From NCBI GenBank assembly GCA_964560445.1, contig CAZLLT010000007.1, positions 20,255-84,254 of the forward strand: DNA of 64,000 nt, read 5' to 3'. Of this stretch, positions 3,331 to 47,830 are shown piece after piece; the stretch's first letter is position 1, and every line of letters starts with the position of its first letter. Source of the DNA: an uncultured Chitinophaga sp. GTDB taxonomy: Bacteria; Bacteroidota; Bacteroidia; Chitinophagales; Chitinophagaceae. Under the pieces are notes generated by a model. That model did not search any database and was not told where the DNA came from. It saw only the letters and a list, made by a program, of their open reading frames with translations. The translations under genes and the position numbers were made by a program.

Positions 3331-3377
3331 TACCCATTACCACGCATAGTAATACCCGATTTATTGATTATTTTTCG
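3331..3377 (+). promoter_or_regulatory. Putative 7-2-7 box plus -7-like element for the caspase-TPR gene
   Basis: TACCCAT-TA-CCACGCA (3331-3346), a 23-nt gap, then ATTTTTCG (3370-3377) just before ATG 3380. Further TACCC half-sites at 3315 and 3353. Confidence 0.4.
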
Positions 3378-6844: not shown

Positions 6845-6877
6845 GTTATAAGCAGAAAGCGGAATACGGAAGCCAAC

Positions 6878-8350: not shown

Positions 8351-8364
8351 TGAATACTGTTTGA

Positions 8365-9264
8365 TTATTGAATAGCCGGTCTTGCCGCAATGCCGTTACT
8401 AATGATTTTAAGCACTCTTTCTCTTTCCTCTCCTTCCAATACAAGCCTCGGCGCCCTTACATACTCGCTTCCGATGCCTGCCTGCGCTTCAGCTAATTTG
8501 ATATACTGCACCAATTTGGGATGAATATCCAGTTCCAGCAATGGCATAAACCAGCGGTATATTTTTGCTGCTTCAGCAATCTTATTGGCCTTTACCAAAT
8601 TATAAATAGCTGTTGTTTCATGGGGAAAAGCGCAAACCAATCCTGCCACCCAGCCGTCAGCGCCAAGGCAAAGCTCTTCCATAGCCAATGTATCCACGCC
8701 GCAAAGGATTTTAAACCGGTCGCCAAAGCGGTTCCTCATTCTCGTTACGTTAGTAACATCTCTTGTGCTTTCTTTTACAGCGGTGATATTAGCAGCCGCC
8801 TGCAAATCGTCAAACATATCCAGGGTAACTTCTGTTTTATAATCTACAGGGTTATTATAGATCATAACCGGCAGGTCGGTAGAAGCTGCAATCGTTTTAA
8901 AATAGGTTACCGTTTCCCTATGGTCGCTTTTATAGCGCATAGGCGGCAACAGCATCAGGCCCTCTGCGCCCCATTGTTTTGCAAGCGCCGCCTGTCTTAA
9001 TGCCTCTTTGGTGCTGCCTTCAGCTATATTGATTATTACCGGCGCTTTCCCTTCCACTTTTTCAATGGCAAACCTTACCAGCGTTTCTTTTTCTTCTGTA
9101 CTGAGCACACTGGCTTCACCTAAGGTGCCGCCGAGTATAATACCTTCAACGCCCGCCTCTAACTGCACTTCAAGGTTTTTATGAAACAAAGGTAAATCCA
9201 GTTCATCGGCTGATGTAAATTTGGTGGTCAGCGCCGGGAAAACCCCTTTCCATTCAAATGACAT
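8365..9264 (-). CDS. Dihydrodipicolinate synthase family protein (likely pyrroline-4-hydroxy-2-carboxylate deaminase type)
   Basis: GTLGEAS, MIYNNPVDY, VKES and G..GWVAGLV motifs; adjacency to a KGSADH-like ALDH supports hydroxyproline catabolism. Confidence 0.8.
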   Translation of the reverse strand: MSFEWKGVFPALTTKFTSADELDLPLFHKNLEVQLEAGVEGIILGGTLGEASVLSTEEKETLVRFAIEKVEGKAPVIINIAEGSTKEALRQAALAKQWGAEGLMLLPPMRYKSDHRETVTYFKTIAASTDLPVMIYNNPVDYKTEVTLDMFDDLQAAANITAVKESTRDVTNVTRMRNRFGDRFKILCGVDTLAMEELCLGADGWVAGLVCAFPHETTAIYNLVKANKIAEAAKIYRWFMPLLELDIHPKLVQYIKLAEAQAGIGSEYVRAPRLVLEGEERERVLKIISNGIAARPAIQ

Positions 9265-34618: not shown

Positions 34619-37600
34619 CTATTGCTTAATAAAGGACACGGTTTCTATTGTTCCGTCTTTCATTATTAATTGCAGGAAGTAGATGCCGCCCGGCAAAGCC
34701 GATACATCATACTGCATATCCTGCCTTACATTCAACCCTCTTACTACCCTTCCCTGTGTGTTGATGATTTGCAATAAAGAAATATCGGATGCCTTTACAT
34801 TCTTTAAACCGATGCTATTGGTTGCCGGGTTGGGCATTAGCCTTATGCTACTGGCACAATTTGTCGTTAGTCTGGCAATGGCAGAATAAGATATACGGCC
34901 ATCCATATCTACCATTTTCAGGCGGTAGAAACTTGCTCTTCCGGGTGCAAGACCCAATGTGGCGGTATAGGTATTTTCGCCATTCCTGTTTGTGGCAGGA
35001 TGCTGTTTTACAGTCATAAAGTTTACACCATCTGTACTGTATTCGATTTCAAAATGCGATACGCCGGTTTCGTCTGTTGTTTTCCATTGTATGAATGCCC
35101 GGCAGTTCTTTTCGCTTACAGTAAAGTCAATAAGAGTAAGGGGCAGCACAATTCCATCACAAACTTCTATCACAGCCGTTTCATTTATACAATTACCTGT
35201 ATTTCCTGAAATGGTACGGGTGCCTGTACCTTCTAAGTAAGCACATACACTTTCCACAGCGCAGGCACTAAGAGCGGCGTTGCCCAGGATGATGAGGTCT
35301 GTAATGCTGGCAGGGTCTATATTGGCAACACCGGTTATGGAACTGAGGGCGGCATTATTCTCAATACGCAATGTGCCGCCAATGGTTTGCACACCGGCCA
35401 ACCCGTCTATGCTTTGCAGTACGAGGTTTTCCTGTATGCGTAAAAAACGGTTTACCTCTTCCAGCACAGCGAAACCATCCAGAGCCGCCAGTTTATCATT
35501 ATTCAGGATAACAAAATCATTTACACTCTCCAGGTTAGTGAACCCTTCGATGGTTAACAGTTCCGGGTTATTGGCAATTACAAACTGGGTGGCTCCTCCG
35601 TCAGTGTTGGCCTGTTGCAGGGCCGTAAACCCATTTATACTTTCTAACAGGTTATTGTTATAGATAAGTACTGAATTAGCTATAGTGAGCAAGGCCGTAA
35701 AGCCATCAATGCTTTGCAGCGCAGCATTTTGGAAAATTGCAAAATACCCGTTAGCGGTTTCCAAAACCGGGAAGCCGTCAATGCTTTGCAACTGGCCATT
35801 ATTAGTAATTTGCAAAGGTCCGTTAATGGTTTCCAGTCCCGGGAAGCCGTCAATATTTTGCAACTGGCCGTTAGTATGAATTTGAAAATCCGTACCTACG
35901 GTTTGCAGCACAGGGAAACCATCAATGTTTTGCAACACATTATTTTGGGAAATGAGAAAATGCCCGCCAATGGTTTCCAGCCCCGGGAAGCCGTCAATGT
36001 TTTGCAACTGGCCGTTAGTATGAATTTGAAAATCCACACCTACGGTTTTCAGCACAGGGAAGCCGTCAATGTTTTGCAGTGCACTACTATTGCCAATGAT
36101 AAAGTCCCGGCCTACGGTTTCTAACTTGGCAAACCCATCAATGCTTTGCAGGGTATTATTGAAACCCAAACTTACATCCAGGCCAACGCTTACCAATTCG
36201 GGCAGGCTGATGGTTTGCAATGCAGCATTGTTGGCTACATACAGGTAGCCAACAATGCTTGTGAGTGCAGGCAAACCGGCATTTTCCAATATGGTATTGT
36301 TGTTGATGGTTACATTTCCGCCAACAGTTGTGATACCTGCCAGTCCTGTAAGGTTGGTAATGTTCGCACCACTAATGGTAAGGTTGCCCGATAAATTGAT
36401 GCAATTGGGATGTGCATTTATAAAGTCATCTATCTGCAACTGTGTGTTAAAAGTGAGATTGCCTGCTATGTCTTCGCAGGGTGGCGGTGCATCACAAGCA
36501 TCCTGCACAGCCGCTTCATCCACACAATTTCCTGTATTGCCTGAGATAGTTCGGGGGCCTGTGCCATCTAAGTAAGCACATACAGTTTCAATAGCGCAGG
36601 CGCTGAGTGCGGCGTTGTCTTGAATGATGAGGTCTGTAATGCCAGCAGGGTTAATATTGGCAATGCCGGCTATGGAACTGAGCAGTAAATTGTCAGTAAT
36701 AGTAATGCTTCCGCCAATCGTTTCCAATGCCGGAAAATCACCTATAGCTTCCAGCGCATCATTATTATTGATCCTGATATAGCCCGCAACACTTTGCAAG
36801 GAAGTGAAACCTTCAATGCCGGTTAGGGAAGGACTTCTTTCAACTATGAAATTCAGGCCAACGGTTTCAAGTGATGAAAAGCCATTGATGCTTTCCTGTG
36901 CCGTGTTATCCCGGATTATAAAGCTGCCTCCAACGGTTTGCAGGGCATTGAACCCGTCAATGCTTTGCAGCGTTGGATTGATGTCAATACTTACCACGCC
37001 GGTTATACTTTGCAGCACGGGAAATCCGTCAATATCCAACAACCCGGCATTGTTCCGGATAACTAAAGCACCCCCGATGGTATGCAATTCCGGAAAGCCG
37101 CTAATGCCTGTAAGTCCGTTATTTGATAACGTTAATTGTCCACCAACAGTTTCCAATTCAGGTGCATCAATAGTTTCCAAAACAAGGTTATTAGATATAG
37201 TTAAAAATGTACCCACACTTACCAGTGCCGGAAGACCCGGGCCTGTTAAGGCAGCGGCATCATTGATGACTAAGCTTGTACCAACAGTTTCCAACTGCGG
37301 TAAATCAATAGTTTCCAAAACAGGGTTTTCATATATATTTAAAAAGGTAGTGGTGTTTACCAGTTCCGGCAAGCTCACACTTGTTAACGATGTGTTTTGT
37401 GTGATAACTATACTTGTACTCGTAGTTATCAACTGAGGTAAAGCAATTGTTTGCAAAGCCGGATTATTATGTGCATTTAACTGTGCACCTGTACTTACCA
37501 GTGCAGGCAGGCTGGCATGTTCCAATATTGTATTGTTGTTAATGGTTACAGTTCCGCTAACCGTTGTTATCCCCGCCAGCCCGTCAAGGTTGGTGATGTT

Positions 37601-38578
37601 TGCACCACTGATGATGAGGTTGCCGGATAAATTGATACAATTAGGATGCGTATTTATAAAGTCATCTATCTGCGCCTGTGTGTTAAAAGTAAGATTGCCT
37701 GCTATGTCTTCGCAGGGTGCCGGGCCGCCGTCGTCTATGGTAAACTCCACGCTGTTGGTAATGCTCCAATTACCTTCTTCACTTAATGTACGCAGGTGCA
37801 GTGTATGCACACCATCGTCATAAGACGAGAGGTCAATATTTAATTCAATACCGGCAATGTCAATTGCATCAGTTACAGGTATAGCCGTACCGAGGCCAAA
37901 ACCGGGGTCGGTATCAATGAAATACTCAGCAGCCACTACATCACCTGCTGCTGCAGGGGCTTCGCTATAAGCAGGGTCGCTGTCTATGGTAAACTGAATG
38001 CTGTTGGTAATGCTCCAGTTACCTTCTGCACTGAGTGTACGCAGGTAAAGCCTGTGTATGCCTACAGGCAGGCCTGTGGCAGATGCGCTTAGTGGTATAT
38101 CTGTAATGTCAATCGCATCAGTTACCGGTATAGCCGTAGCGAGGCCAAAGCCGGGGTCGGTATCAATAAAATATTCGGCAGCCACCACATTGCCCGCTGC
38201 TGCGGGGGCAATGGTATAAGCAGGGTCGCCGTCTATAATAAACTTGCGGCTGTTGCTAATACTCCAAAATCCCTCAGCACTTTGGGTACGCAGGTAAAGT
38301 GTATGCACACCAACAGGCAATCCCGTAGTGGGAATATCTATTTCAATACCGGCAATATCAACACCGGTATTTATAGTTATAGCCGTGCCGAGGCCAAAGC
38401 CCGGGTCTGTGTTAATAAAATATTCGGCAGCCACCACATTGCCTGCCGCTGCGGGGGCTGGCGTGTATGACGGGTCTTCCTGCCCACGGACAAGCAGGAT
38501 GCTGCAAGCGAAGCTTATGATGAGTAGTAGCTTTTTCAAACCTGTATTTTTTGAGTGATGAGTTTTTTCATTAACCAT
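34619..38578 (-). CDS. T9SS type A-sorted protein: 3x AEYFxxTDPG Ig-like domains, 2 receptor-L-domain-like LRR solenoids, CTD
   Basis: Signal peptide; three 83-aa repeats (249-nt period); 22-24-aa repeats (L..I.G.L.I.NN..L..I.GF..L); VLPLTLIDF and LMPNPA...GGIYFLQL...SFIKQ CTD. Confidence 0.88.
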   Translation of the reverse strand: MVNEKTHHSKNTGLKKLLLIISFACSILLVRGQEDPSYTPAPAAAGNVVAAEYFINTDPGFGLGTAITINTGVDIAGIEIDIPTTGLPVGVHTLYLRTQSAEGFWSISNSRKFIIDGDPAYTIAPAAAGNVVAAEYFIDTDPGFGLATAIPVTDAIDITDIPLSASATGLPVGIHRLYLRTLSAEGNWSITNSIQFTIDSDPAYSEAPAAAGDVVAAEYFIDTDPGFGLGTAIPVTDAIDIAGIELNIDLSSYDDGVHTLHLRTLSEEGNWSITNSVEFTIDDGGPAPCEDIAGNLTFNTQAQIDDFINTHPNCINLSGNLIISGANITNLDGLAGITTVSGTVTINNNTILEHASLPALVSTGAQLNAHNNPALQTIALPQLITTSTSIVITQNTSLTSVSLPELVNTTTFLNIYENPVLETIDLPQLETVGTSLVINDAAALTGPGLPALVSVGTFLTISNNLVLETIDAPELETVGGQLTLSNNGLTGISGFPELHTIGGALVIRNNAGLLDIDGFPVLQSITGVVSIDINPTLQSIDGFNALQTVGGSFIIRDNTAQESINGFSSLETVGLNFIVERSPSLTGIEGFTSLQSVAGYIRINNNDALEAIGDFPALETIGGSITITDNLLLSSIAGIANINPAGITDLIIQDNAALSACAIETVCAYLDGTGPRTISGNTGNCVDEAAVQDACDAPPPCEDIAGNLTFNTQLQIDDFINAHPNCINLSGNLTISGANITNLTGLAGITTVGGNVTINNNTILENAGLPALTSIVGYLYVANNAALQTISLPELVSVGLDVSLGFNNTLQSIDGFAKLETVGRDFIIGNSSALQNIDGFPVLKTVGVDFQIHTNGQLQNIDGFPGLETIGGHFLISQNNVLQNIDGFPVLQTVGTDFQIHTNGQLQNIDGFPGLETINGPLQITNNGQLQSIDGFPVLETANGYFAIFQNAALQSIDGFTALLTIANSVLIYNNNLLESINGFTALQQANTDGGATQFVIANNPELLTIEGFTNLESVNDFVILNNDKLAALDGFAVLEEVNRFLRIQENLVLQSIDGLAGVQTIGGTLRIENNAALSSITGVANIDPASITDLIILGNAALSACAVESVCAYLEGTGTRTISGNTGNCINETAVIEVCDGIVLPLTLIDFTVSEKNCRAFIQWKTTDETGVSHFEIEYSTDGVNFMTVKQHPATNRNGENTYTATLGLAPGRASFYRLKMVDMDGRISYSAIARLTTNCASSIRLMPNPATNSIGLKNVKASDISLLQIINTQGRVVRGLNVRQDMQYDVSALPGGIYFLQLIMKDGTIETVSFIKQ

Positions 38579-38612
38579 TCCCTATTTTCCATTCCCTGTT
38601 CTCCTATATATA

Positions 38613-39698
38613 TCAATTATTGTTTCTTGTACTGAACGTACCCTGCAATTGCCCACCCGGCTGTACAGTAGTGGCATTGAGGTTTAGTTGGTAGATGGCA
38701 GGCACAGGCGGTATGCCCGACAGTTTATAAGGATTGGGGCCGCCATAAGCGCCGCAATCGGGTGTGATGCCACCCACAGTAACACCAGCGCCGATGGCAG
38801 GGGAACCGGAACGCAGCATCAAGCGGCTGTCAATACTGCCTGTTTCACTGATATAGCTATCTACAAATACCGTAGCCATATTCACACTTACCTGGTTATT
38901 CACCTCGCCGGCAGGCAGGGTTTGGTTTCCCTGGAAAAAATTGTGTTTTACAATACAATCGGTGAAGGTTTGCGGCTGCGGATTAGCATTGCTGGAAGCA
39001 AAAATGTTGTTGGCAACATAGCAATTTACAAATACGCTTCCCTGATGACTGGCAGGTGTATGAAACACATTGTTGCGGATGATCTTTACATCACCTTCCG
39101 TAACGGGTATATTTATTGACCTACCTACGGCGGCAAAAATATTGTTCTCTATCAGGACGTTGGTGGGTGCAAGATTATTATTCACTGTTATTCCAATGGA
39201 GGTTGACAAAAAAGAGCATTTTCGGATTGTAACGTTGTTGCTGTTCCCGCTATTAAAGGCAATTCCCATATTACCGGGATAAGCAAATTGGCAGCGTTCT
39301 ATTAAAACATCAGAAGCACCGTCATTTAGATAAAGACTCCCCCCAGCAAAATTTAACCCTAAAAGCTTGCTACCATTTGCGCCGGGATACAGGACAATAT
39401 TTTGGATTACAGGTGCTGTAGTATTGGCTTGCAGGCCTGCATTTTCTGCCAGGTAATAACCTGTGCCAATTAGAACAAGCTGTTTTGTAACATTACCAAC
39501 AGGATAGGCCGTAGCGCTTGGCTCAAAATGAATGGTATCGCCATTGACGGCGTTGCCATGAGCGGAAGCAAAGGTAGTATAGAGCAGGCCCGGTATTTGT
39601 GTGATGCCGGGGTTATTGTTTACCCTTATGATTTTGGCGTTTGTAATTTGGCATGCTACTATTAAGAATAGACCTGCAAAGAAGATTTTTTTGTTCAT
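38613..39698 (-). CDS. Secreted right-handed beta-helix (pectin-lyase-fold/NosD-like) protein
   Basis: ATG 39698 MNKKIFF signal peptide; KIIRVNNNPG, GDTIHFEPS, LVLIGTGYYL, NVLIENNIF, LRSGSPAIGAG and DCGAYGG. Confidence 0.8.
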   Translation of the reverse strand: MNKKIFFAGLFLIVACQITNAKIIRVNNNPGITQIPGLLYTTFASAHGNAVNGDTIHFEPSATAYPVGNVTKQLVLIGTGYYLAENAGLQANTTAPVIQNIVLYPGANGSKLLGLNFAGGSLYLNDGASDVLIERCQFAYPGNMGIAFNSGNSNNVTIRKCSFLSTSIGITVNNNLAPTNVLIENNIFAAVGRSINIPVTEGDVKIIRNNVFHTPASHQGSVFVNCYVANNIFASSNANPQPQTFTDCIVKHNFFQGNQTLPAGEVNNQVSVNMATVFVDSYISETGSIDSRLMLRSGSPAIGAGVTVGGITPDCGAYGGPNPYKLSGIPPVPAIYQLNLNATTVQPGGQLQGTFSTRNNN

Positions 39699-39719
39699 GG
39701 TTGTATGTTTTTGGCTGCA

Positions 39720-39829
39720 CAAACATAAAAAATCATGCACCCTGCACCTATACGCTAAATCAGGCAATTATGACCGAAAAAAATACTTAAATTCAGGTAG
39801 TTCTTTTTTAGCACCCGTATATAACTTTG
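39720..39829. promoter_or_regulatory. Divergent promoters with two 7-2-7 boxes
   Basis: Minus -7 box TATGTTTG (39720-39727); boxes at 39751-39766 and 39784-39799 (33 bp apart, both ending TCAGG(C/T)A); plus -7 box TAACTTTG (39822-39829). Confidence 0.65.
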
Positions 39830-39853
39830 CTGGTTGGTAAAAAACGGCAGCAC

Positions 39854-41851
39854 ATGCACAGCAAATCCAGGAAGTTATTGGTCACACTTTTTTTAGCAGG
39901 CAGTTTTGGCGTAGCTGCACAGCAGTATAATGAAGACAGCCTGCAACGCATTTTACATGCGGGAAAAGTAAGCGGAAAGGATATGCTTGTGTACAGGGCA
40001 TTGGGTATAAACCATTACTCAAAAGGGAATTATGACTCTGCCATCTATTATTACAAAGAAGGGCTGCAAAGAAGCCTTCAATTAAAAAATAAATATTGGG
40101 AAACCAAATATACCTTGTGGACAGGCGGTGTATATATTGCCGCTACTAAATACGACAGCGCCGAACATTATCTTTCCTTGTCTTACCCACTGGTTCAGGA
40201 AAGTAAAAACGACAGCCTGATTGCATCATACCATCAGAACACCGGAACACTGTACCTGTTTCAAAACAAACACGAAGCATCGGCAGAAGCCATGATAAAA
40301 AGCATAGATATCATGGAAAAAATGGGAGATAAAACGCCGTCGTCTTTGCTGATGGCAGCCTATGCTAATTTATCGGCCATTTTCAGCAGGTTGAATCAAC
40401 TTGACAAAGCGCTGGAATACGACAAAAAAATGCTGGCATTAAAAGAAGCCTATGCCAATACAGGGGAATATGCAAGCCTGTATTTTAATGCGGCTGTTAC
40501 CTATTTTCAACTGGAAGATTTTAAAAACATGAAATTGTATTTAGATACGGCGCTTTACTACAATAACTTATACCCCAACCCACGGGCCTTATTAAATATT
40601 ATAGGGTCATTGGGTACTTATTATGAAAATACAGGACAAAAAGATTCGGCATTAGTATATCATGAAAGAGCTATGGCTATCAGCAAAGAGGCTAAGGAGT
40701 TTTATTTTTATGCTGAAAGGGCTATCAATGCAGCAGGCGTATATTCCCAAACAGGAAACCAAACGAAAGCTGCTGCGCTACTGAAAGAAGCCATTCCCTA
40801 TGCAGAACAATTCAGCGATTACCGTATGCTTGCAGAAGCGTATAAAGGGCTAAAAGAAATTGCACAGAAAAAAGGGAACTTTAAAGACGCTTTTCAATAT
40901 GCCGAACTAAGCAACGCCTATTATGACAGTGTATCTAATGCAACCGTTAAAACCACTGTGCTTGACCTTGAAACCAAATACGAAGCCACCAAAAAAGAAA
41001 AAGAAATAGCTGACCTTACAGCATCTAACACCCAAAAAGATCTCGCCGTAGTAAAACGCAACCGTTTTTTAATCATTGGCTGTATTTCGTCAGCGGCATT
41101 GCTCCTTACACTGGGGTTGCTATATCGCAACAGCCGCCAGAAAAAATCATTGGCCGAAAAAGACAAACGGTTGAAAGAGGAAGAAGTGAAATTTTTAAAA
41201 GAACAGCAGCAGGTAATATCACTGCAAAGTATGGTGAATGGGCAGGAAACAGAACGTACCCGTATTGCCAAAGATTTGCACGATAGCCTGGGCGGTTTAT
41301 TTTCTACCATTAAAATGTACTTCAGCAGTATGCAACATGAGCATCCCGCTTTGATGCAAAACGAAATATTCAACAAAAGCCTTGATCTGGTAAACAACGC
41401 ATCGCAGGAAGTGCGGCGCATAGCCCATAATATGATGCCCGAGGTCTTGATAAAAGTAGGCTTGGTGCAAGCAGTACAAGACCTCTGTGATAATATCAAC
41501 TCATCTAAACTACTTACCATCAGCCTGCAGCATTATGGCATGGGAAAAAGACTGAATGCCTCCACTGAAGTGATGCTGTTTCGCATCATACAGGAATTGC
41601 TTAATAATATCATTAAACATGCTTCTGCCAGTAAAACCATTGTGCAATTCAACCGTATTGACAATGAACTTACCGTTACAGTGGAAGATAATGGCAAAGG
41701 GTTTAACCTGCAGGAAACCGATAACAAAACCCACGCAGGCCTGGAAACAGTTAAAAGCAGGGTAAATTACCTTAATGGTGAACTTTCCATTGATACGGAA
41801 AAGGAAGTAGGTACCACTGTTATTATGCACTTCTTAATTAATGAAGAATAA
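39854..41851 (+). CDS. Periplasmic-TPR sensor histidine kinase (HisKA_3 / NarX-like)
   Basis: Signal peptide, TPRs, LETKYEATKKE, TM, QETERTRIAKDLHDSLGG (H-box), FRIIQELLNNIIKHA and VEDNGKGF. Confidence 0.92.
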   Translation: MHSKSRKLLVTLFLAGSFGVAAQQYNEDSLQRILHAGKVSGKDMLVYRALGINHYSKGNYDSAIYYYKEGLQRSLQLKNKYWETKYTLWTGGVYIAATKYDSAEHYLSLSYPLVQESKNDSLIASYHQNTGTLYLFQNKHEASAEAMIKSIDIMEKMGDKTPSSLLMAAYANLSAIFSRLNQLDKALEYDKKMLALKEAYANTGEYASLYFNAAVTYFQLEDFKNMKLYLDTALYYNNLYPNPRALLNIIGSLGTYYENTGQKDSALVYHERAMAISKEAKEFYFYAERAINAAGVYSQTGNQTKAAALLKEAIPYAEQFSDYRMLAEAYKGLKEIAQKKGNFKDAFQYAELSNAYYDSVSNATVKTTVLDLETKYEATKKEKEIADLTASNTQKDLAVVKRNRFLIIGCISSAALLLTLGLLYRNSRQKKSLAEKDKRLKEEEVKFLKEQQQVISLQSMVNGQETERTRIAKDLHDSLGGLFSTIKMYFSSMQHEHPALMQNEIFNKSLDLVNNASQEVRRIAHNMMPEVLIKVGLVQAVQDLCDNINSSKLLTISLQHYGMGKRLNASTEVMLFRIIQELLNNIIKHASASKTIVQFNRIDNELTVTVEDNGKGFNLQETDNKTHAGLETVKSRVNYLNGELSIDTEKEVGTTVIMHFLINEE

Positions 41852-41941
41852 AGGCCACAATTATCCTGGGTGTATCATTTCTTCATTTCATAAACCCTCA
41901 AAAAATTGTATCTTCATCCAGACCAACATCTGGTACTTATT

Positions 41942-42577
41942 ATGATACAAATACTTATCATTGACGACCATCCATTGGTAGCCGATGGGATTGCCACTAT
42001 GATAAGGGATTTAAGCCACTTGCAAATAACCGGGCATTACAAAACCGGAAAAGAAGCGCTTGATTTTTTACACCATCAATCCCCAGATATAATCTTATTA
42101 GACCTTAACCTACCCGATACAAATGGAATTGAGCTTTGTGCTCAAATAAGGGGAAAAAATAAAGTATCAAAGATTATCGCCCTTACTTCCACCAATGAAA
42201 CCGGCATTATTACCCAAATACTAAGTAAAGGTGGTAATGGTTATTTACTTAAAGACATGGAAAGAAATGACCTTCTTGCAGCTATAGACACTGTGTTAGA
42301 CAACAGGGTTTACCTGAGCAAATCTGCTCATGAAAAAGTAATAGAACAATTCCTCTCTGTAAATAATGCATTGGAAAGCATCCCAAAACTCACCCGGAGA
42401 GAACAACAAATTTTGCAACTCTTCCATGAAGGGTATAATGTTCCGGAAATTGCCGAAAAAATATTCCTGAGCAGCCTTACTATTCAAACACATAAGAAAA
42501 ACCTGATGCAAAAAATGAAGGTAAATCATACCCAGCAATTGTTAAAAGTGGCAAGGGAACTGGGGTTAGTGAAGTAA
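41942..42577 (+). CDS. NarL/LuxR family response regulator
   Basis: ILIIDDHPLV, IILLDLNLPD, GYLLKD, and the LTRREQQIL...IAEKIFLSSLTIQTHKKNLMQK HTH. Confidence 0.93.
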   Translation: MIQILIIDDHPLVADGIATMIRDLSHLQITGHYKTGKEALDFLHHQSPDIILLDLNLPDTNGIELCAQIRGKNKVSKIIALTSTNETGIITQILSKGGNGYLLKDMERNDLLAAIDTVLDNRVYLSKSAHEKVIEQFLSVNNALESIPKLTRREQQILQLFHEGYNVPEIAEKIFLSSLTIQTHKKNLMQKMKVNHTQQLLKVARELGLVK

Positions 42578-42632
42578 CTGCAGGTAAGGTTATTTATAAA
42601 CATCTGTCTTTTATCTTTCAATAGAAAAAATC

Positions 42633-42748
42633 TTATACCTGCGTTTGTGATACATAAATGCCCATGCCCTTAAAAATAAATACTTTGATTGGCATGGGGC
42701 AAAGTTATAGCCGGATTACGCTATGTTGTATCACTAATTTTAGGGATA
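42633..42748 (-). pseudogene. Promoter plus truncated 20-codon ORF resembling a response-regulator start
   Basis: Palindrome 42729-42748, TAACTTTG 42700-42707, then ATG 42695 giving MPIKVFIFKGMGIYVSQTQV with stop at 42633. Confidence 0.4.
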
Positions 42749-42873
42749 GCTTTGTAAACAGCGTTTTCTTTGATGTCATAAGAAGCACTCATGGCAGGTA
42801 ATTTTTCTTGTCTTCCTCTTTTCGCAAACACGTCTGATTTTTGTTGCAGTTTGCTGGCATAGTATAAGACTTG

Positions 42874-45800
42874 CTACCTGCTTTTCCAGCCGGGCAGGTA
42901 TTTATCAAGGAGCTTCTGAAAGTCTTTGTCTTTTTTCAGGTCCATCAGGTCCGGGTCGGTAAGCAGGTCTTCTTTTCCTTTATACCCTAACTCGTATGCC
43001 CGCTGCAGGTACACAATGGCCTCTTTTGATTTTCCCTGTAAAGCATAGGTGCAGCCTAACTGGAAATACGATTTTATTCTCAACGGATCGAGCCTTGTAC
43101 TTTCTTCGAGGTAAACAATAGCCGAATCGTATTGCTGCATGGCACGGTAAGTAAGCCCCAGGTTCAGCATGGAAGTAGGAGAATTGGGGTCAAGCTCCAC
43201 CGCTTTCTTCAGGTAAACCAATGCCGAATCATTCAGGTCAATCACCAGGTAAATGCCCCCGATGCGGGAATAGCCATTGGCGTAATTCCTGTCCAGCATT
43301 ATAGCTTTCCGGAAATAAGCAATCGCCGAATCATACATTTTAAATTCATCATAATAGCCGCCTATCACTGCGTAATCCACAGGGTCAGGCTCTATCCAGC
43401 GCAGCACCTGTTTTTTATAATAATGAACGGCCGAATCATATTGCTTTTGCTGGCGGAACATATTCGCCATATTGCCGCTGTACACAGGGCTTTCCGGCGC
43501 CTGTTCTATTGCCCTGAAAAAATAGATACGGGCTGAGTCATACCTCCTCATGCCCTGGAAGGCAAGCCCGGTATTGTTCAGCAACTGCGGGTTAAAAGGT
43601 TCTTTTTCCAATCCCATTCTGAAATATTTCCTTGCCGAGTCATACTTTCTCTGGTCAAGGAATGAAAGCCCCACTTCATTCATATAAACGGAAGAACCCG
43701 GGTTCAGTGTCGTGGACTCCATCAGGAAGTTGGTAACAGAATCCAACTGGCCCAACTGCCGGAAAAGCTTTACCATATTATTGAACGCAGGTTTATAATC
43801 GGGCCGTATCTGTAAAGAACTGCGGAAATACGCTTTTGCCGAATCATAATTTTTATCCCCTGCATATACAGTGCCCACATTATTGAAAATAGCAGGGTTG
43901 CCCGGCTCTAATTGTATCGCCCTTTGAAAATGGGCATACGCCGAATCAGGCTGCTGCACTTCTTTGAATACGATGCCCAGGTTGATAAGCGAATGGGCAG
44001 AGTACGGATTGGCCCCTAATGCTCTTTTATAGTAATACCGGGCAGAGTCGTATTGTTTTAAAAGAAAACTGGCCTGCCCCAGGTTGTTAAATGCCACTTC
44101 GTATTGCGGGTCCAGTTCTACGGCATTCCGGTAATATACTTTTGCCGAATCATATTCCCCCAGGTCTCTGTAAAAATTACCGACATATACGTTCACAATT
44201 GACTTATCCGGGTAGTTGGCAAAAGCCTGCCGGTAATAAATCCGGGCAGAGTCATATTCTTTTTTATAAAAGAAAGTTTTGGCAAGGCCATTGTACGCGT
44301 TGATAAGCTTCGGGTCAATTTGAATACTCTTTTTGAAATACGGAACGGCATTATCATACTTTTTCTGATCAAGAAAAAGCCAGCCGATGTTATTGGAAGC
44401 ATATACATTGGCAGGATCAATACGCAACGCTTTTTCGTAATTCGCAATTGCCGAATCAGGCTTTGAAATAGCGTAATAGAAATGGCCCAGGTCCACATAC
44501 GCATCTGCATTGCCCGGATCGGCAGCTATGGCCCGGCGATAGTATTTTACGGCCGAATCCCTTTTGTTTAATGTTTTATAAGAATAAGCCAGCGTAACAT
44601 AAGGATACCTCCATTTGGGCGCGGTGGTAATAGCCCTTTTGGCATAATAAATGGCGCTGTCATAATTGTTATTATCCAAATGCAGGGAAGAGAGTGTATT
44701 CAGGATATAAGAAGCGTTCCTGTCTGAGGCATAAGCCGAATAAGCAAACTGAAATGCGGTTCTTATATCTATTTTCTGGCGGCTTCTTCCGAAATATCCT
44801 CTTGCTTTAAAAAAATTCATACGTCCCATAAGCGACCGGGCAAAAACAGGGTCATCGGGCATAATGTAGCTGATGGCTTTTTCAAGCATCTCCCCCACTT
44901 CATGAAATTCCTGCTGCGCCACTTTTTCCATCCGCAATAATGTACTGTTGAGGTCATCGGAATTTTCTTCTTCCGCCGCCTGCACCCGCAACCGCTGAAT
45001 AGAAGCAGCATCTTTGCAATCAAGGTAAAGATTGATCTTGGTCTGGGCAAAATTGATGAACTCCACCGCAAGTGTAGTTTGGGCGTCTATCGTATAGGCG
45101 TCGCCGGGATACTTTCTGGCCATCATGTCATAATAATATTCTGCGGAGGCCCTGCCTGTAAGCCGACTTTCACGGACTGCCTTATTAAATAAATTGTACG
45201 TATCAATCAAAAGCGTATCGGCGGCGCCTCTTCCATTCTCTTTTTTAGCCTTTGTAAAAGCGCCTGCCGAATTGCCCGGTCCTTTGTTCTCTGTCTTTTT
45301 TTCAATCAGCCATCGGCGCAGGTAGGCCGTATCCACTACGGTAATGATTTTTTCACTGTTTTCGTTGCAACAGAAATAAGGGTCCTGCTTTCGTTTAAAC
45401 ACCTGTTGGGCTATTGCAGGTACGTTTTTATGGATATATTGCTGTATTTCGGACAGGCTAACCTTGTTGTCCTTTTGCACATCCGCCTCGCCGGTCAGGC
45501 CGTTTACAAGATAATAGGTAAATAAACCGTGTCCGTTACCGATAGATTCATCCTCCAGCGACTCCTGCCCTGCCCCGGTGGCCAGCATAATGATTTCGCC
45601 GGCCCTTTTTTCGGAAATGGCGGAATTAAGAAAGTTCTGGCCCTCTTTTCCTCCCGGCAGTTCATTGGTGCGGCAGGCGTCCATTATAAAAAATACTTCT
45701 ACCCCTTTTCCCGTTTCCCGCTGTATTTTCAATTTCAGGTTATACAACTGTATCACCCCACCGGCCAGGTAATTGTTTTTATCACCGGCGGGGTTGCAAT

Positions 45801-46206
45801 CGTAGGCAATATAAAAAAACTGGTCTTCATCAATGGCATCGCCATGCCCCGCCAGGTAAATAAACAACTTATCTCCATCCCTTAGCTTTTTCGCATCCAG
45901 CCATTTAAATCCCTTGGCCCAGAACATGGTTGACAGGGCCTGCTCATTCAGGAGGCAAAAAATATTGTCCGCAGATACGCTGCCACCGGCAGGCGACATT
46001 AAAAAATCCCGGAACATTTCGGCATCTTTATCTGCATAAGAAAGGGGGCGGACATATTTATATTTTGAAATCCCCATTATCATAGCAAATGTCTGCGACC
46101 CGCTGATGGTTGTATCCCGTGGTTTGGGCGGCCCGGCCTGCGCTATAACCGGCAGGTCATGAAGAAAAAAGAAAGCGGCAAACAGTATGAGATAACAAAT
46201 CTTCAT
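42874..46206 (-). CDS. Secreted caspase (peptidase C14) domain protein with a long C-terminal TPR array
   Basis: Signal peptide; FAMIMGISKY, YLAGHG, IMDACRT and GHGLFTYYLVNGL; more than a dozen TPRs (YDSA..YY..A...P). Confidence 0.9.
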   Translation of the reverse strand: MKICYLILFAAFFFLHDLPVIAQAGPPKPRDTTISGSQTFAMIMGISKYKYVRPLSYADKDAEMFRDFLMSPAGGSVSADNIFCLLNEQALSTMFWAKGFKWLDAKKLRDGDKLFIYLAGHGDAIDEDQFFYIAYDCNPAGDKNNYLAGGVIQLYNLKLKIQRETGKGVEVFFIMDACRTNELPGGKEGQNFLNSAISEKRAGEIIMLATGAGQESLEDESIGNGHGLFTYYLVNGLTGEADVQKDNKVSLSEIQQYIHKNVPAIAQQVFKRKQDPYFCCNENSEKIITVVDTAYLRRWLIEKKTENKGPGNSAGAFTKAKKENGRGAADTLLIDTYNLFNKAVRESRLTGRASAEYYYDMMARKYPGDAYTIDAQTTLAVEFINFAQTKINLYLDCKDAASIQRLRVQAAEEENSDDLNSTLLRMEKVAQQEFHEVGEMLEKAISYIMPDDPVFARSLMGRMNFFKARGYFGRSRQKIDIRTAFQFAYSAYASDRNASYILNTLSSLHLDNNNYDSAIYYAKRAITTAPKWRYPYVTLAYSYKTLNKRDSAVKYYRRAIAADPGNADAYVDLGHFYYAISKPDSAIANYEKALRIDPANVYASNNIGWLFLDQKKYDNAVPYFKKSIQIDPKLINAYNGLAKTFFYKKEYDSARIYYRQAFANYPDKSIVNVYVGNFYRDLGEYDSAKVYYRNAVELDPQYEVAFNNLGQASFLLKQYDSARYYYKRALGANPYSAHSLINLGIVFKEVQQPDSAYAHFQRAIQLEPGNPAIFNNVGTVYAGDKNYDSAKAYFRSSLQIRPDYKPAFNNMVKLFRQLGQLDSVTNFLMESTTLNPGSSVYMNEVGLSFLDQRKYDSARKYFRMGLEKEPFNPQLLNNTGLAFQGMRRYDSARIYFFRAIEQAPESPVYSGNMANMFRQQKQYDSAVHYYKKQVLRWIEPDPVDYAVIGGYYDEFKMYDSAIAYFRKAIMLDRNYANGYSRIGGIYLVIDLNDSALVYLKKAVELDPNSPTSMLNLGLTYRAMQQYDSAIVYLEESTRLDPLRIKSYFQLGCTYALQGKSKEAIVYLQRAYELGYKGKEDLLTDPDLMDLKKDKDFQKLLDKYLPGWKSR

Positions 46207-46217
46207 AAAACAAACCT

Positions 46218-46267
46218 CTAATTTATGAATTTACCTTCGAATAAGGCATACCCGCTTTAGGGGATGC
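46218..46267 (-). promoter_or_regulatory. -7 box and 7-2-7 palindrome for the caspase-TPR gene
   Basis: Minus strand TCCCCTA-AA-GCGGGTA (46249-46264), a 23-nt gap, then TAAATTAG (46218-46225). Confidence 0.6.
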
Positions 46268-46300
46268 GGCAGCTACGCAGAAAAACGCAATAGGTTAAAC

Positions 46301-46493
46301 TACCACCTGCCAGCAGGTGGATTAAAGACTGAGCCTAAAATGTTGGCCACGAAATCACACTGATTTTCACGAAAGTGAAAATTCTTTAGTGTTCTTTTGT
46401 GTGTTTTCGTGGCAAAAAGCAGCCCTTGCTGTGCTGCATTTTTCTTACCCGGCATAACCACAGCCTCATTACCGCCCCCAAAGGCGGTGGATT
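46301..46493. repeat. Two direct hairpin repeats flanking a GCCACGAA...TTCGTGGC palindromic element
   Basis: taccacctgccagcaggtggatt (46301) and taccgcccccaaaggcggtggatt (46470); inner element at 46346-46413. Confidence 0.6.
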
Positions 46494-46582
46494 TCCAGGT
46501 CGTATTAAAATAACGTAATGTTGTAACCCGCAAAACCAGCCGAAAGTGCTTATTATTGCAAGAACAGCAAAAGACTGTTTGA

Positions 46583-47830
46583 ATGGAACCAAAAAGCCCC
46601 AAACCACCCAGCCCCAGGCCTCAAAAGAGAAAAAACCCCATTACCAAATATCTTTATGAAAAAGATACCATATTCGCTACGGTATGGGTTTTCATATTCA
46701 TCATAGTCCTCGGCTCCCTCCCCCTTAATACGTATGTGCTAAACCCCTTAAAAATGGGGTTAAAAGATTTTGACTATACCGACCTGGCTTATGCCGAACT
46801 GGGCAAAGGGGACGATTCGCTTGACAACCGCATCGTGATCATCAATATAGATACAGCGCAAAGGGATATGCTGGCCTTACTGATTGAGCAAACTGCCGCT
46901 TACGGGCCAAAGGTGATGGGGCTGGATGTGGTTTTTGACGGCCCGCGGGAGCCTTTCCAGGATTCCTTGCTCGCTGCAACCCTTAGCGCCCATAAAAACA
47001 TCATAGTAGCAACAAAATTTGACTGGCAGGATACTGCTTCTCCTTACAAGCAAGGCCATTTTGCCTTTACCGGGAACAAGCAGGGGTATGTGAACATGCT
47101 TGCCGAAGACATTGCCACCATAAGGCTATGGTCGCCGTTCTTTGAAAATGAAACCGATAAAAAAGCGCCGCCTTACAAGAGCTTCGCCGCCTCCATCGTA
47201 GAAGAGTATGATCCGGCAGCATTTAAAAAAATGCAGAAAAGAAAGAAAAAATCAGAACTGATCAATTTTACCAGGAGGGCTGGTTTTTACCAGATCATTG
47301 AACCGGAAATGCTGCTGACAGGCAATGTGGATACCAGCGCCTTAAAAGGTAAGATTGCTTTACTGGGCTATATCGGCCGTACCCCCTACGACATTGAAGA
47401 TAAAAAGTTTACACCCATGAACCCGAGATTTGCCGGTAAATCTATCCCGGATATGAACGGAATAGTGGTTCATGCCAATATAATTTCGATGATATTGGAC
47501 AAAAACTATATAAAAAAATTACCTTCGTGGGTAAACTGGCTGGTAGCCATTATCATCGGATGGCTTCACATGTCCTTCTTCGTCCGGTATTATCTTGAAA
47601 AACATATCTGGTTTCATTTAGTAGCAAAACTTGCACAGGTAATTTCTGCCATATTGTTTGCGTACCTGGCAATTTATCTTTTCGACCGGTTCAATGTAAA
47701 ACTGGATGTAAAGATGACCCTGATTGTAATTGTAATGGCCGTAGATGTTATTTATTTCTATGAAGCATGGGCTTCCTGGATGCATAAAAAATATAATTAT
47801 AAAACCATATTCAAGCCACATCATCACTAA
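46583..47830 (+). CDS. CHASE2 domain membrane protein with no cytoplasmic output domain
   Basis: N-terminal TM; IVIINID, PKVMGLDVVF, D.LLAATL, LKGKIALLGY, TPMN and MNGIVVHANII.MIL; three TM helices, then only a short tail ending KPHHH. Confidence 0.85.
   Translation: MEPKSPKPPSPRPQKRKNPITKYLYEKDTIFATVWVFIFIIVLGSLPLNTYVLNPLKMGLKDFDYTDLAYAELGKGDDSLDNRIVIINIDTAQRDMLALLIEQTAAYGPKVMGLDVVFDGPREPFQDSLLAATLSAHKNIIVATKFDWQDTASPYKQGHFAFTGNKQGYVNMLAEDIATIRLWSPFFENETDKKAPPYKSFAASIVEEYDPAAFKKMQKRKKKSELINFTRRAGFYQIIEPEMLLTGNVDTSALKGKIALLGYIGRTPYDIEDKKFTPMNPRFAGKSIPDMNGIVVHANIISMILDKNYIKKLPSWVNWLVAIIIGWLHMSFFVRYYLEKHIWFHLVAKLAQVISAILFAYLAIYLFDRFNVKLDVKMTLIVIVMAVDVIYFYEAWASWMHKKYNYKTIFKPHHH

What the first reader, a model, noticed from the sequence alone, without database searches (positions are those of the whole stretch)
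39720..46267. Shared promoter architecture (7-2-7 box, 23 nt, -7 box) links the adhesin operon and caspase genes to the TPR-HK/NarL pair
Seen, on the sense strands: TGCCTGA-TT-TAGCGTA +23 nt+ TATGTTTG (beta-helix operon); TCCCTAA-AA-TTAGTGA +23 nt+ TAACTTTG (42695 remnant); TCCCCTA-AA-GCGGGTA +23 nt+ TAAATTAG (caspase-TPR 46206). More weakly, TACCCAT-TA-CCACGCA +23 nt+ ATTTTTCG precedes the caspase at 3380. A second box lies 33 bp further upstream at 39784. Established: NarL/LuxR regulators bind 7-2-7 inverted heptamers, often next to the -35/-33 region. Inference: one regulon, plausibly driven by the response regulator at 41942, co-induces exported caspases and surface solenoid proteins in response to a ligand bound by the periplasmic TPRs.
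Basis: partly seen in the sequence, partly recalled or inferred. Interest (0 to 1): 0.65.

Follow-up and report, generated by a model that had tools for sequence, protein, structure and literature searches.

The report
Two NarL-type operator classes, one architecture
The 16-bp boxes placed 22-23 bases upstream of the promoter -7 box are real regulatory sites, but they are two different motifs: one is the conserved operator of the neighbouring two-component system and its secreted-protein operon, and the other marks a genus-wide set of caspase-like genes controlled by a different, still unidentified regulator.

Summary
The layout (16-bp inverted repeat, 22-23 nt, Bacteroidota -7 box) is not chance, but two motifs were merged.

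Class A, TACCTGA-NN-TCAGGTA, is the pair of boxes at 39751-39766 and 39784-39799. They lie between the TPR-HisKA_3 kinase/NarL-type regulator and the divergent secreted-protein operon. The same module, with the same spacings, occurs upstream of the orthologous kinase in all 25 species that have it. Exact copies occur only in those genomes, almost always at that locus. This points to positive autoregulation plus control of flanking secreted-protein genes, as a small local regulon.

Class B, TACCC-N6-GGGTA, includes the box before caspase-TPR (46249-46264). The weaker box before the caspase at 3380 (3331-3346) is conserved in 14 of 15 orthologues. In this genome 7 of 8 exact class B copies are intergenic, and 5 of 9 caspase/CHAT genes carry a composite site (p=4e-9). 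The motif is equally enriched in genomes that lack the two-component system, so the regulator at 41942 is very unlikely to drive the caspases.

The 42731 box is at chance level. It may be a decayed remnant. The class B regulator was not identified.

The parts
39720..39727 (-). -7 box TATGTTTG of the divergent operon promoter (genes 38613-39698 and 34619-38578)
   Evidence: A -7-like box lies 23 nt from the distal box in 22 of 25 orthologous loci.
39751..39766 (.). Distal class A box. Plus strand TACGCTAAATCAGGCA, minus strand TGCCTGATTTAGCGTA. 10/14 to TACCTGA-NN-TCAGGTA.
   Evidence: A second box lies 32-34 bp from the proximal box in all 25 species. The half-site next to the divergent promoter is the conserved one.
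39784..39799 (.). Proximal class A box TACTTAAATTCAGGTA (12/14), the main operator.
   Evidence: at least 12/14 in 25 of 25 species. Columns T1 A2 C3 T5 A7 G13 G14 T15 A16 are invariant. It is the top intergenic hit of the symmetric PWM in this genome.
39822..39829 (+). -7 box TAACTTTG of the kinase/regulator operon promoter, 22 nt after the proximal box.
   Evidence: spacing is 22 nt in 14 species, 23 in 8, 21 in 2 and 24 in 1. No TTTG -33 element.
39854..41851 (+). Sensor histidine kinase: signal-like N-terminus, TPR repeats, one TM segment (~404-425), HisKA_3, HATPase_c.
   Evidence: Pfam, hydropathy. Weak N-terminal similarity to P. gingivalis FimS.
41942..42577 (+). NarL-family response regulator (REC + GerE).
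   Evidence: Pfam. Best solved relative is E. coli NarL 1a04, E=6e-31. Recognition helix is TIQTHKKNLMQK, against T(V/I)ETHRKNLMQK in most orthologues.
34619..39698 (-). Divergent target operon: a 361-aa secreted protein of unknown family, plus a 1319-aa LRR/Recep_L protein with a T9SS C-terminal sorting domain.
   Evidence: Pfam. The 361-aa family is also the divergent partner in G022, G072 and G109.
42700..42746 (-). 'Remnant': box TCCCTAAAATTAGTGA (42746..42731), 23 nt, TAACTTTG (42707..42700). No gene follows. A stable hairpin follows at once.
   Evidence: 9/14 to class A and 5/10 to class B. No partner box at 33 bp. Hairpin z=-3.25. No protein remnant found.
46218..46264 (-). Class B box TCCCCTAAAGCGGGTA (46264..46249; 9/10 to TACCC-N6-GGGTA), 23 nt, -7 box TAAATTAG (46225..46218), upstream of caspase-TPR (42874-46206).
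   Evidence: The -7 box is conserved in 25 orthologues, but the box position is not.
3331..3376 (+). Class B-like box TACCCATTACCACGCA (3331-3346), 22 nt, TATTTTTC (3369-3376), upstream of TPR-caspase (3380-6844).
   Evidence: AAATACCC...(C/A)(G/C)G(G/T)A(T)A is conserved at the same distance in 14 of 15 orthologues.

Best explanation
Two NarL-type operator classes share one activator-dependent promoter design. In both, a 16-bp inverted repeat ends 22-23 nt upstream of the sigma-A -7 box. That places it at about -50 to -35, centred near -42/-43, where the -33 element would normally be.

Class A is TACCTGA-NN-TCAGGTA. It is the operator of the adjacent TPR-sensor kinase and NarL-family regulator. 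Two boxes lie 33 bp apart, about three helical turns, so on the same face of the DNA. They form a bidirectional cassette: the strong box serves the kinase/regulator operon (positive autoregulation), and the weaker box serves the divergent secreted-protein operon. I infer that phosphorylated regulator dimers bind both boxes cooperatively and recruit RNA polymerase. The regulon is local.

Class B is TACCC-N6-GGGTA. It is a separate, genus-wide operator that precedes most caspase/CHAT genes and some other secreted-protein genes. It includes both caspase genes named in the finding. A different, unidentified regulator binds it, probably another LuxR/NarL-type protein.

Shown: the motifs, their spacings, their conservation and their distribution across genomes. 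Inferred: which protein binds, and that the effect is activation.
For: Class A:
- The module [-7]-23 nt-[box]-33 bp-[box]-22/23 nt-[-7] is present in all 25 species that have the kinase orthologue (36-62% amino-acid identity). Their intergenic DNA is otherwise unalignable.
- Exact TACCTGANNTCAGGTA occurs 10 times in 25 TCS-plus genomes, 9 of them at the TCS locus. It occurs 0 times in 25 TCS-minus genomes.
- Extra boxed promoters, each with two boxes 33 bp apart, flank the TCS in G073, G074, G118 and G090.
- The regulator is REC+GerE and its best solved relative is NarL. The recognition helix is conserved among orthologues.
- NarL binds 7-2-7 sites as a dimer and activates napF and yeaR from sites at -40..-49 and -38..-47 (PMC4549865). 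The -7 box spans -12 to -5 (PMC9723704).
- None of the boxed promoters has a -33 TTTG: 0/25, 0/25 and 0/14, against 43/441 generic promoters.

Class B:
- 8 exact copies in this genome, 7 of them intergenic, although only 9% of the genome is intergenic. The reversed-pattern control gives 1 exact copy.
- TACCC and GGTA peak at the distances from -7 boxes expected for this layout.
- A composite site is found at 24 of 2727 genes, including 5 of 9 C14/CHAT genes (Fisher p=4e-9).
- Enrichment is the same without the TCS (82 sites vs 21 control) and with it (101 vs 23).
- In TCS-minus genomes, 9 of 34 exact sites precede caspase-like ORFs.
Against: - No binding or expression data exist.
- This genome's own class A boxes are the most degenerate of the 25 (12/14 and 10/14). 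Its regulator carries E->Q and R->K changes in the recognition helix. Its specificity could have drifted, and cross-binding to class B or to the 42731 box cannot be excluded.
- The class B box is not positionally conserved upstream of caspase-TPR orthologues.
- The class B regulator is unidentified.
- Class B might be a family-level core shared by several paralogous regulators rather than one regulon.
- A box that covers the -35 region could repress rather than activate.
Confidence: 0.68

Rival explanations
1. One reading: a single regulon. The regulator at 41942 binds all the boxes and co-induces the caspases and the secreted solenoid proteins.
For: - The layout is the same at all sites.
- Caspase-TPR is adjacent and convergent to the regulator in this genome.
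- This genome's regulator has unique recognition-helix substitutions.
- In relatives, genes on both sides of the TCS do carry class A boxes.
Against: - The caspase boxes have C at position 5 and G at position 12. All 25 class A operators have T at position 5, and 22 of 25 have A at position 12.
- Class B is equally enriched, and still caspase-linked, in genomes without the TCS.
- The caspase/TCS adjacency is unique to this genome. Here the ancestral TCS-rsmE-dnaB synteny is broken.
- No caspase is found among the boxed flanking genes in relatives.
Confidence: 0.07
2. Class A boxes are repressor sites. The regulator occludes the -35 region of both divergent promoters, and the signal relieves repression.
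For: The boxes cover the position of the -33 element. NarL represses at some promoters, such as frdA (PMC4549865).
Against: - None of 50 class A promoters has a -33 TTTG. They therefore look activator-dependent.
- The box centre near -42/-43 matches the NarL-activated napF and yeaR promoters.
- The -7 boxes are often imperfect.
Confidence: 0.13
3. The 42731-42746 box is the decayed promoter of a lost class A-regulated gene that once lay convergent to the regulator, as in G073, G074 and G118.
For: - It has the class A signature at positions 5 and 12 (T and A), a perfect TAACTTTG at exactly 23 nt, and the right place and orientation.
- The locus is rearranged in this genome.
Against: - It matches only 9/14. 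About 18 such composites are expected genome-wide by chance (a hand estimate from the 2221 -7 boxes and the background rate).
- There is no partner box at 33 bp.
- No protein-coding remnant was detected.
- A terminator-like hairpin follows immediately.
Confidence: 0.25
4. Class B is not one regulon. It is the shared outer core (TACCC...GGGTA) of several paralogous NarL-type regulators, each reading the inner bases.
For: - The inner six positions show no consensus.
- The genome encodes ten GerE proteins.
- The most NarL-like candidate regulator is present in only about 19 of 147 genomes.
Against: There is strong functional coherence: caspase/CHAT genes in this genome and in three TCS-free genomes.
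Confidence: 0.3

Closest known systems
E. coli NarX/NarL and its 7-2-7 heptamer sites (for example TACCCCTAAAGGGGTA; napF and yeaR activation)
   Same: - REC+GerE regulator paired with a HisKA_3 kinase.
- 16-bp inverted heptamers separated by 2 bp, with TACC...GGTA ends.
- Activating sites centred near -43.
- NarL is the best solved relative (E=6e-31; PMC4549865).
   Different: - The sensor is an extracytoplasmic TPR array, not a nitrate-binding four-helix bundle.
- The half-site is TACCTGA rather than TACYYMT.
- The recognition helix has E/Q-T where NarL has K188-V189.
- The promoter is the Bacteroidota sigma-A -33/-7 type.
- The regulon is local and encodes secreted proteins, not respiratory enzymes.
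Porphyromonas gingivalis FimS/FimR
   Same: - Same phylum.
- Kinase with a periplasmic domain of clustered TPR motifs and an unknown signal.
- Positively controls surface or adhesin genes (PMC11053733).
- Weak N-terminal similarity (E=2e-18).
   Different: - The score is far below the FimS equivalog cut-off (66 vs 600 bits).
- The operator and promoter geometry of FimR were not compared here.
- The targets here are T9SS cargo and unknown secreted proteins, not fimbriae.
Autoregulated NarL-family envelope systems (LiaSR/VraSR type)
   Same: HisKA_3 kinase plus NarL-type regulator, inferred positive autoregulation from an inverted repeat upstream of its own operon, and a small regulon. VraR is the second-best solved relative.
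   Different: Those systems are Firmicutes with intramembrane-sensing kinases. This one is a Bacteroidota system with a large extracytoplasmic TPR sensor and a bidirectional cassette with variable divergent cargo.
Prokaryotic caspase homologues fused to TPR/WD40/CHAT (orthocaspases; conflict-system architectures, PMC7159879, PMC3501461)
   Same: The class B targets have these domain architectures.
   Different: My searches found no shared transcriptional operator described for such genes. Here, most copies in a genome share one.

Membership tests
NarL/FixJ-family response regulator (window 41942-42577) | N-terminal receiver domain plus C-terminal GerE/LuxR helix-turn-helix | tested here: met
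   Pfam Response_reg 3e-27 and GerE 1.4e-16.
NarL/FixJ-family response regulator (window 41942-42577) | Phospho-acceptor Asp in the receiver | tested here: met
   Aligned to NarL, 'iilldlnlp' matches 'lilldlnmp', which contains D59.
NarL/FixJ-family response regulator (window 41942-42577) | Cognate kinase with a HisKA_3 dimerisation/phosphotransfer domain | tested here: met
   HisKA_3 1e-9, HATPase_c 4e-12, and the H-box 'LHDSLGG'. The gene is adjacent and co-oriented.
NarL-type 7-2-7 operator, class A | Two inverted heptamers separated by 2 bp, conserved with the regulator | tested here: met
   TACCTGA-NN-TCAGGTA at 12/14 or better in 25 of 25 species. Exact copies occur only in TCS-plus genomes.
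NarL-type 7-2-7 operator, class A | Physical binding by the phosphorylated regulator | not testable with these tools
   Needs EMSA, footprinting or DAP-seq.
Class II-like activator-dependent promoter | Activator site overlaps or replaces the -35/-33 element at a fixed distance from the -10/-7 element | tested here: met
   Spacing of 22-23 nt in 22 of 25 kinase promoters. Spacing of 23 nt in 22 of 25 divergent promoters. No TTTG at -33.
Class II-like activator-dependent promoter | Mapped transcription start and activator dependence | not testable with these tools
   The caspase boxes score -0.9 and -12.5 with the orthologue-derived PWM. They fit TACCC-N6-GGGTA instead.
   Class B is enriched and caspase-linked in TCS-minus genomes. 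The 3380-type caspase box is conserved in 14 of 15 orthologues. Only 5 of the 22 genomes with this caspase also have the TCS.
P. gingivalis FimS equivalog | Full-length match above the NCBIfam cut-off | tested here: not met
   65.7 bits against a 600-bit cut-off. Only the N-terminal TPR region matches.

The most novel reading that the evidence does not exclude
A dedicated 'caspase regulon': across this Chitinophagaceae genus, one NarL-like palindromic operator (TACCC-N6-GGGTA) sits at a fixed 22-23 nt from the -7 box. It co-regulates most caspase/CHAT-family genes (fused to TPR or WD40), together with a few secreted proteases and small secreted proteins, through one unidentified regulator. Finding that regulator and its signal would show when bacteria deploy their caspase homologues.
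Probability: 0.45. Interest if true: 0.7.

Novelty: new member of a known kind. Interest (0 to 1): 0.5.

Why it matters
1. It gives a phylogenetically footprinted operator and promoter geometry for a NarL-family two-component system in Bacteroidota. Activator sites at the unusual -33/-7 promoters of this phylum are poorly described. The conserved sensor-plus-bidirectional-promoter cassette drives different secreted cargo in different species: T9SS LRR and PKD proteins, a lipase, and a cytolysin-like protein.

2. It corrects a tempting inference from gene adjacency. The caspases are not in that regulon.

3. It uncovers a genus-wide operator shared by most caspase-like genes. The physiological role and regulation of bacterial caspase homologues are largely unknown. 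A common cis-element gives a direct way to find the regulator (DAP-seq, pull-down) and the inducing condition.

Tried and rejected
- The strict class A PWM in this genome gave 50 sites scoring at least 10. Only 3 were intergenic, so there is no distant regulon.
- The caspase-TPR paralogue on C2 (101322-103538) has no box of either class.
- I looked for a protein-coding remnant at 42578-42873 using the boxed genes of relatives. Nothing was found.
- Rfam found no RNA family in 39600-46700.
- A single-sequence AlphaFold model of the 361-aa divergent protein had mean pLDDT 38.7. It is unusable, so the 'beta-helix' call stays untested.
- Pfam and NCBIfam found no family for the 361-aa protein or for several boxed genes of relatives.
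- Candidate class B regulator: the RR at C13 25269-25919 has a NarL-like helix (TVRTHVKHIYKK) and an upstream TACCCC...GGGGGA box. It is rejected as the general regulator because orthologues exist in only about 19 of 147 genomes and are missing from motif-rich genomes.
- Literature searches for the motif, or for TPR-kinase/LuxR systems in Bacteroidota, found nothing specific beyond FimS/FimR.
- Earlier-findings look-ups by words and by relatives returned nothing.
Full report
**Setting.** The window is contig C7:20255-84254 of a 3.2-Mb, 43.5% GC genome in 40 contigs. The only close hit in the named genome collection is a Chitinophagaceae MAG. Promoters are of the Bacteroidota type. TTTG peaks 23-24 nt before TAnnTTTG boxes, which matches the known sigma-A -33/-7 design. 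The -7 box spans -12 to -5 (PMC9723704).

**Genes.**
- 38613-39698 (-): 361-aa secreted protein with no family match.
- 34619-38578 (-): 1319-aa LRR/Recep_L protein with a T9SS sorting domain.
- 39854-41851 (+): kinase with TPR repeats, HisKA_3 and HATPase_c.
- 41942-42577 (+): REC+GerE regulator.
- 42874-46206 (-): Peptidase_C14 plus TPR.
- 3380-6844 (+): TPR plus Peptidase_C14.

**Observation.** All quoted boxes and spacings exist; corrected coordinates are in the parts list. The test therefore had to come from comparative data.

**Class A operator.**
- The kinase has orthologues (36-62% identity) in 25 of 147 genomes of the genus.
- In all 25, the region upstream of the kinase contains a 16-mer matching TACCTGA-NN-TCAGGTA at 12/14 or better. 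Columns T1, A2, C3, T5, A7, G13, G14, T15 and A16 are invariant.
- That box lies 21-24 nt upstream of a TAnnTT -7-like box (22 nt in 14 species, 23 nt in 8).
- A second, weaker box lies 32-34 bp away (33 bp in 17 species).
- The second box is 23 nt from a -7-like box on the opposite strand in 22 of 25 species.
- The rest of the intergenic DNA does not align (33% mean column identity).
- In the window, the elements are -7 (39727..39720), distal box 39751-39766, proximal box 39784-39799 and -7 (39822-39829).
The 'second box' is the main operator and serves the kinase's own promoter.

**Specificity of class A.**
- Exact TACCTGANNTCAGGTA occurs 10 times in the 25 TCS-plus genomes, 9 of them at the TCS locus. 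It does not occur in 25 TCS-minus genomes of the same genus.
- Outside the locus, sites with up to one mismatch are as frequent in TCS-plus genomes (0.96 per genome) as in TCS-minus genomes (0.84). The regulon is therefore local.
- In this genome the proximal box is the best intergenic hit. Only 3 of 50 sites scoring at least 10 are intergenic.

**Extent of the local regulon.**
- In G073, G074 and G118, further boxed promoters flank the system. One drives a 341-aa (292-aa in G118) gene convergent to the regulator. Others drive a PKD protein and a 258-aa gene.
- In G090, a boxed promoter drives a 572-aa protein with a thiol-activated-cytolysin domain.
- Each of these promoters again has two boxes 33 bp apart, the proximal one 22-23 nt from a -7-like box.
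- The divergent cargo varies between species: the 361-aa family (G000, G022, G072, G109), a 405-aa family (six species), T9SS cargo, and a class-3 lipase. Most of these proteins begin with a signal-peptide-like N-terminus.
- No caspase is among them.

**Mechanism (inferred).**
- The regulator's best solved relative is E. coli NarL.
- NarL output domains bind 7-2-7 sites as dimers and activate napF and yeaR from sites at -40..-49 and -38..-47 (PMC4549865).
- With the -7 box at -12..-5, the boxes here span about -50..-35.
- None of the 50 class A promoters has a TTTG -33 element.
- I therefore read them as activator-dependent promoters. Two dimers on the same DNA face would give positive autoregulation plus induction of neighbouring secreted-protein genes.
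- The signal would be sensed by the extracytoplasmic TPR array, as proposed for P. gingivalis FimS (PMC11053733; weak similarity).
- Repression is a minority alternative.

**The caspase boxes.**
- Against the orthologue-derived class A PWM, the boxes at 46249 and 3331 score -0.9 and -12.5.
- Caspase-TPR is a core gene, present in 102 of 147 genomes at 60-77% identity.
- In every other species checked that has both genes, caspase-TPR and the kinase lie on different contigs.
- The ancestral context of the system is TCS-rsmE-dnaB. In this genome rsmE and dnaB lie on another contig.
- The adjacency in the window is therefore a lineage-specific rearrangement.

**Class B motif.**
- Orthologues of the 3380 caspase revealed a conserved box. 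AAATACCC-N6/7-(C/A)(G/C)G(G/T)A(T)A lies 22 nt upstream of a TAnnTT(T/C)(C/G) box in 14 of 15 species.
- Positional k-mer counts in this genome show TACCC enriched 38-40 nt before -7 box starts (16 observed, about 4 expected). GGTA is enriched 26-27 nt before them.
- The underlying motif is TACCC-N6-GGGTA. There are 8 exact copies, 7 of them intergenic, although only 9% of the genome is intergenic. At 9/10 or better there are 87 hits, 21 intergenic. The reversed-pattern control gives 52 hits, 2 intergenic and 1 exact.
- 11 of the 21 intergenic sites have a 5/6 -7 box at exactly 22-23 nt.
- The caspase-TPR box (TCCCCTAAAGCGGGTA, 23 nt, TAAATTAG) matches at 9/10.

**Class B targets.**
- Downstream genes are mostly caspase-like: a 749-aa C14 protein, two WD40-C14 proteins plus a C14 fragment in one cluster, a C14-TPR paralogue, a TPR-CHAT protein (box shifted by 1 nt), and both window caspases.
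- Other targets are an astacin-like protease, small secreted proteins, and a conserved site between an ECF sigma gene and a vWA gene.
- A composite site (at least 8/10, 22-24 nt spacing, -7-like box) occurs at 24 of 2727 genes, including 5 of 9 C14/CHAT genes (Fisher p=4e-9).

**Class B is independent of the two-component system.**
- Exact class B sites number 82, against 21 for the control, in 12 TCS-minus genomes. They number 101 against 23 in 9 TCS-plus genomes.
- In three TCS-minus genomes, 9 of 34 exact sites lie upstream of caspase-like ORFs, usually with a -7-like box at 22-23 nt. The ECF/vWA site recurs there.
- I could not identify that regulator. The genome has ten GerE proteins. The one with the most NarL-like helix has orthologues in only about 19 genomes.
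- Caveat: the class B box is not positionally conserved upstream of caspase-TPR orthologues. Their conserved element is ATTCCCCTGTAAATCCG followed by TAA(A/T)TTAG.

**The 42731 box.**
- It matches class A at 9/14 and class B at 5/10. It has a perfect TAACTTTG at 23 nt.
- It has no partner box at 33 bp and no downstream gene. A stable hairpin follows immediately.
- Composites of this quality are expected by chance. Among 533 promoter-like -7 boxes, 11 have at least 9/14 at spacings of 22-24 nt, against about 4 expected. Two of the 11 are the true sites.
- A decayed promoter of a lost flanking gene, like the 341-aa gene of G073/G074, remains possible (about 25%).

**Caveats.**
- Gene calls in the genome scans come from a crude ORF caller.
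- This genome's regulator has Q and K where 23 orthologues have E or D and R in the recognition helix. Its boxes are also the most degenerate. Some drift of specificity cannot be excluded.

**Verdict.** The single-regulon interpretation is wrong for the caspases. The by-product, a genus-wide operator shared by caspase-like genes, is the more interesting lead.

Noticed in passing
window 46207-46260 and loci L085-L108: Caspase-TPR orthologues in 25 species share a strongly conserved promoter block, (C)ATTCC(C/T)(C/T)TGTAAATCCG followed directly by TAA(A/T)TTAG, about 11 nt before the ATG. The block fills the -28..-13 region and is not palindromic. Its binding partner is unknown. In this genome it is diverged (TTCGAAGGTAAATTCA).
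   Followed up: partly
G000 C4:26119-26134; also G063 C2:868978, G069 C12:179696, G073 C16:88816, G074 C4:346976: The identical class B site TACCCTGATGCGGGTA recurs in at least 5 genomes. In the three genomes examined it lies between a divergent ECF sigma-70 gene and a vWA/YfbK-like gene. It is the most conserved single class B site seen.
   Followed up: partly
window 41942-42577 (residues ~180-195): The regulator's recognition helix reads TIQTHKKNLMQK. In the 23 orthologues this Q is E or D and the first K is R, with T(V/I)ETHRKNLMQK in most. This same genome has the most degenerate class A boxes, which may indicate co-drift of protein and operator.
   Followed up: no
L056 (G090) 6769-8487 with box at 8597-8612: In the closest relative, a class A box (TACCTGAATACAGGTA) precedes a secreted 572-aa protein with a thiol-activated cytolysin (PF01289) domain. 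This suggests the system can control a pore-forming-toxin-like cargo.
   Followed up: partly
window 42660-42700: An inverted repeat, GCCCATGCC...GGCATGGGC, lies between the convergent regulator and caspase-TPR genes. It folds stably (z=-3.25) and is probably a bidirectional terminator.
   Followed up: partly
window 27715-30624: A 969-aa protein with Reg_prop/Y_Y_Y propeller repeats and a C-terminal GerE helix-turn-helix (a one-component LuxR-type regulator). It is one of ten GerE proteins in the genome and an untested candidate for binding class B boxes.
   Followed up: no
G000 C26:11747-22732: A cluster of three large WD40-caspase genes plus a 94-aa caspase fragment. Class B boxes lie before the fragment, the first gene and the third gene.
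   Followed up: partly
G000 C12:43490-45295 and C20:26299-28110: Two paralogous genes of about 600 aa, each near a NarL-type regulator gene. Both carry the identical box TAACCTGTTTATGGTA, then 23 nt, then TACTTTGC. This may be a third operator class with the same geometry.
   Followed up: no
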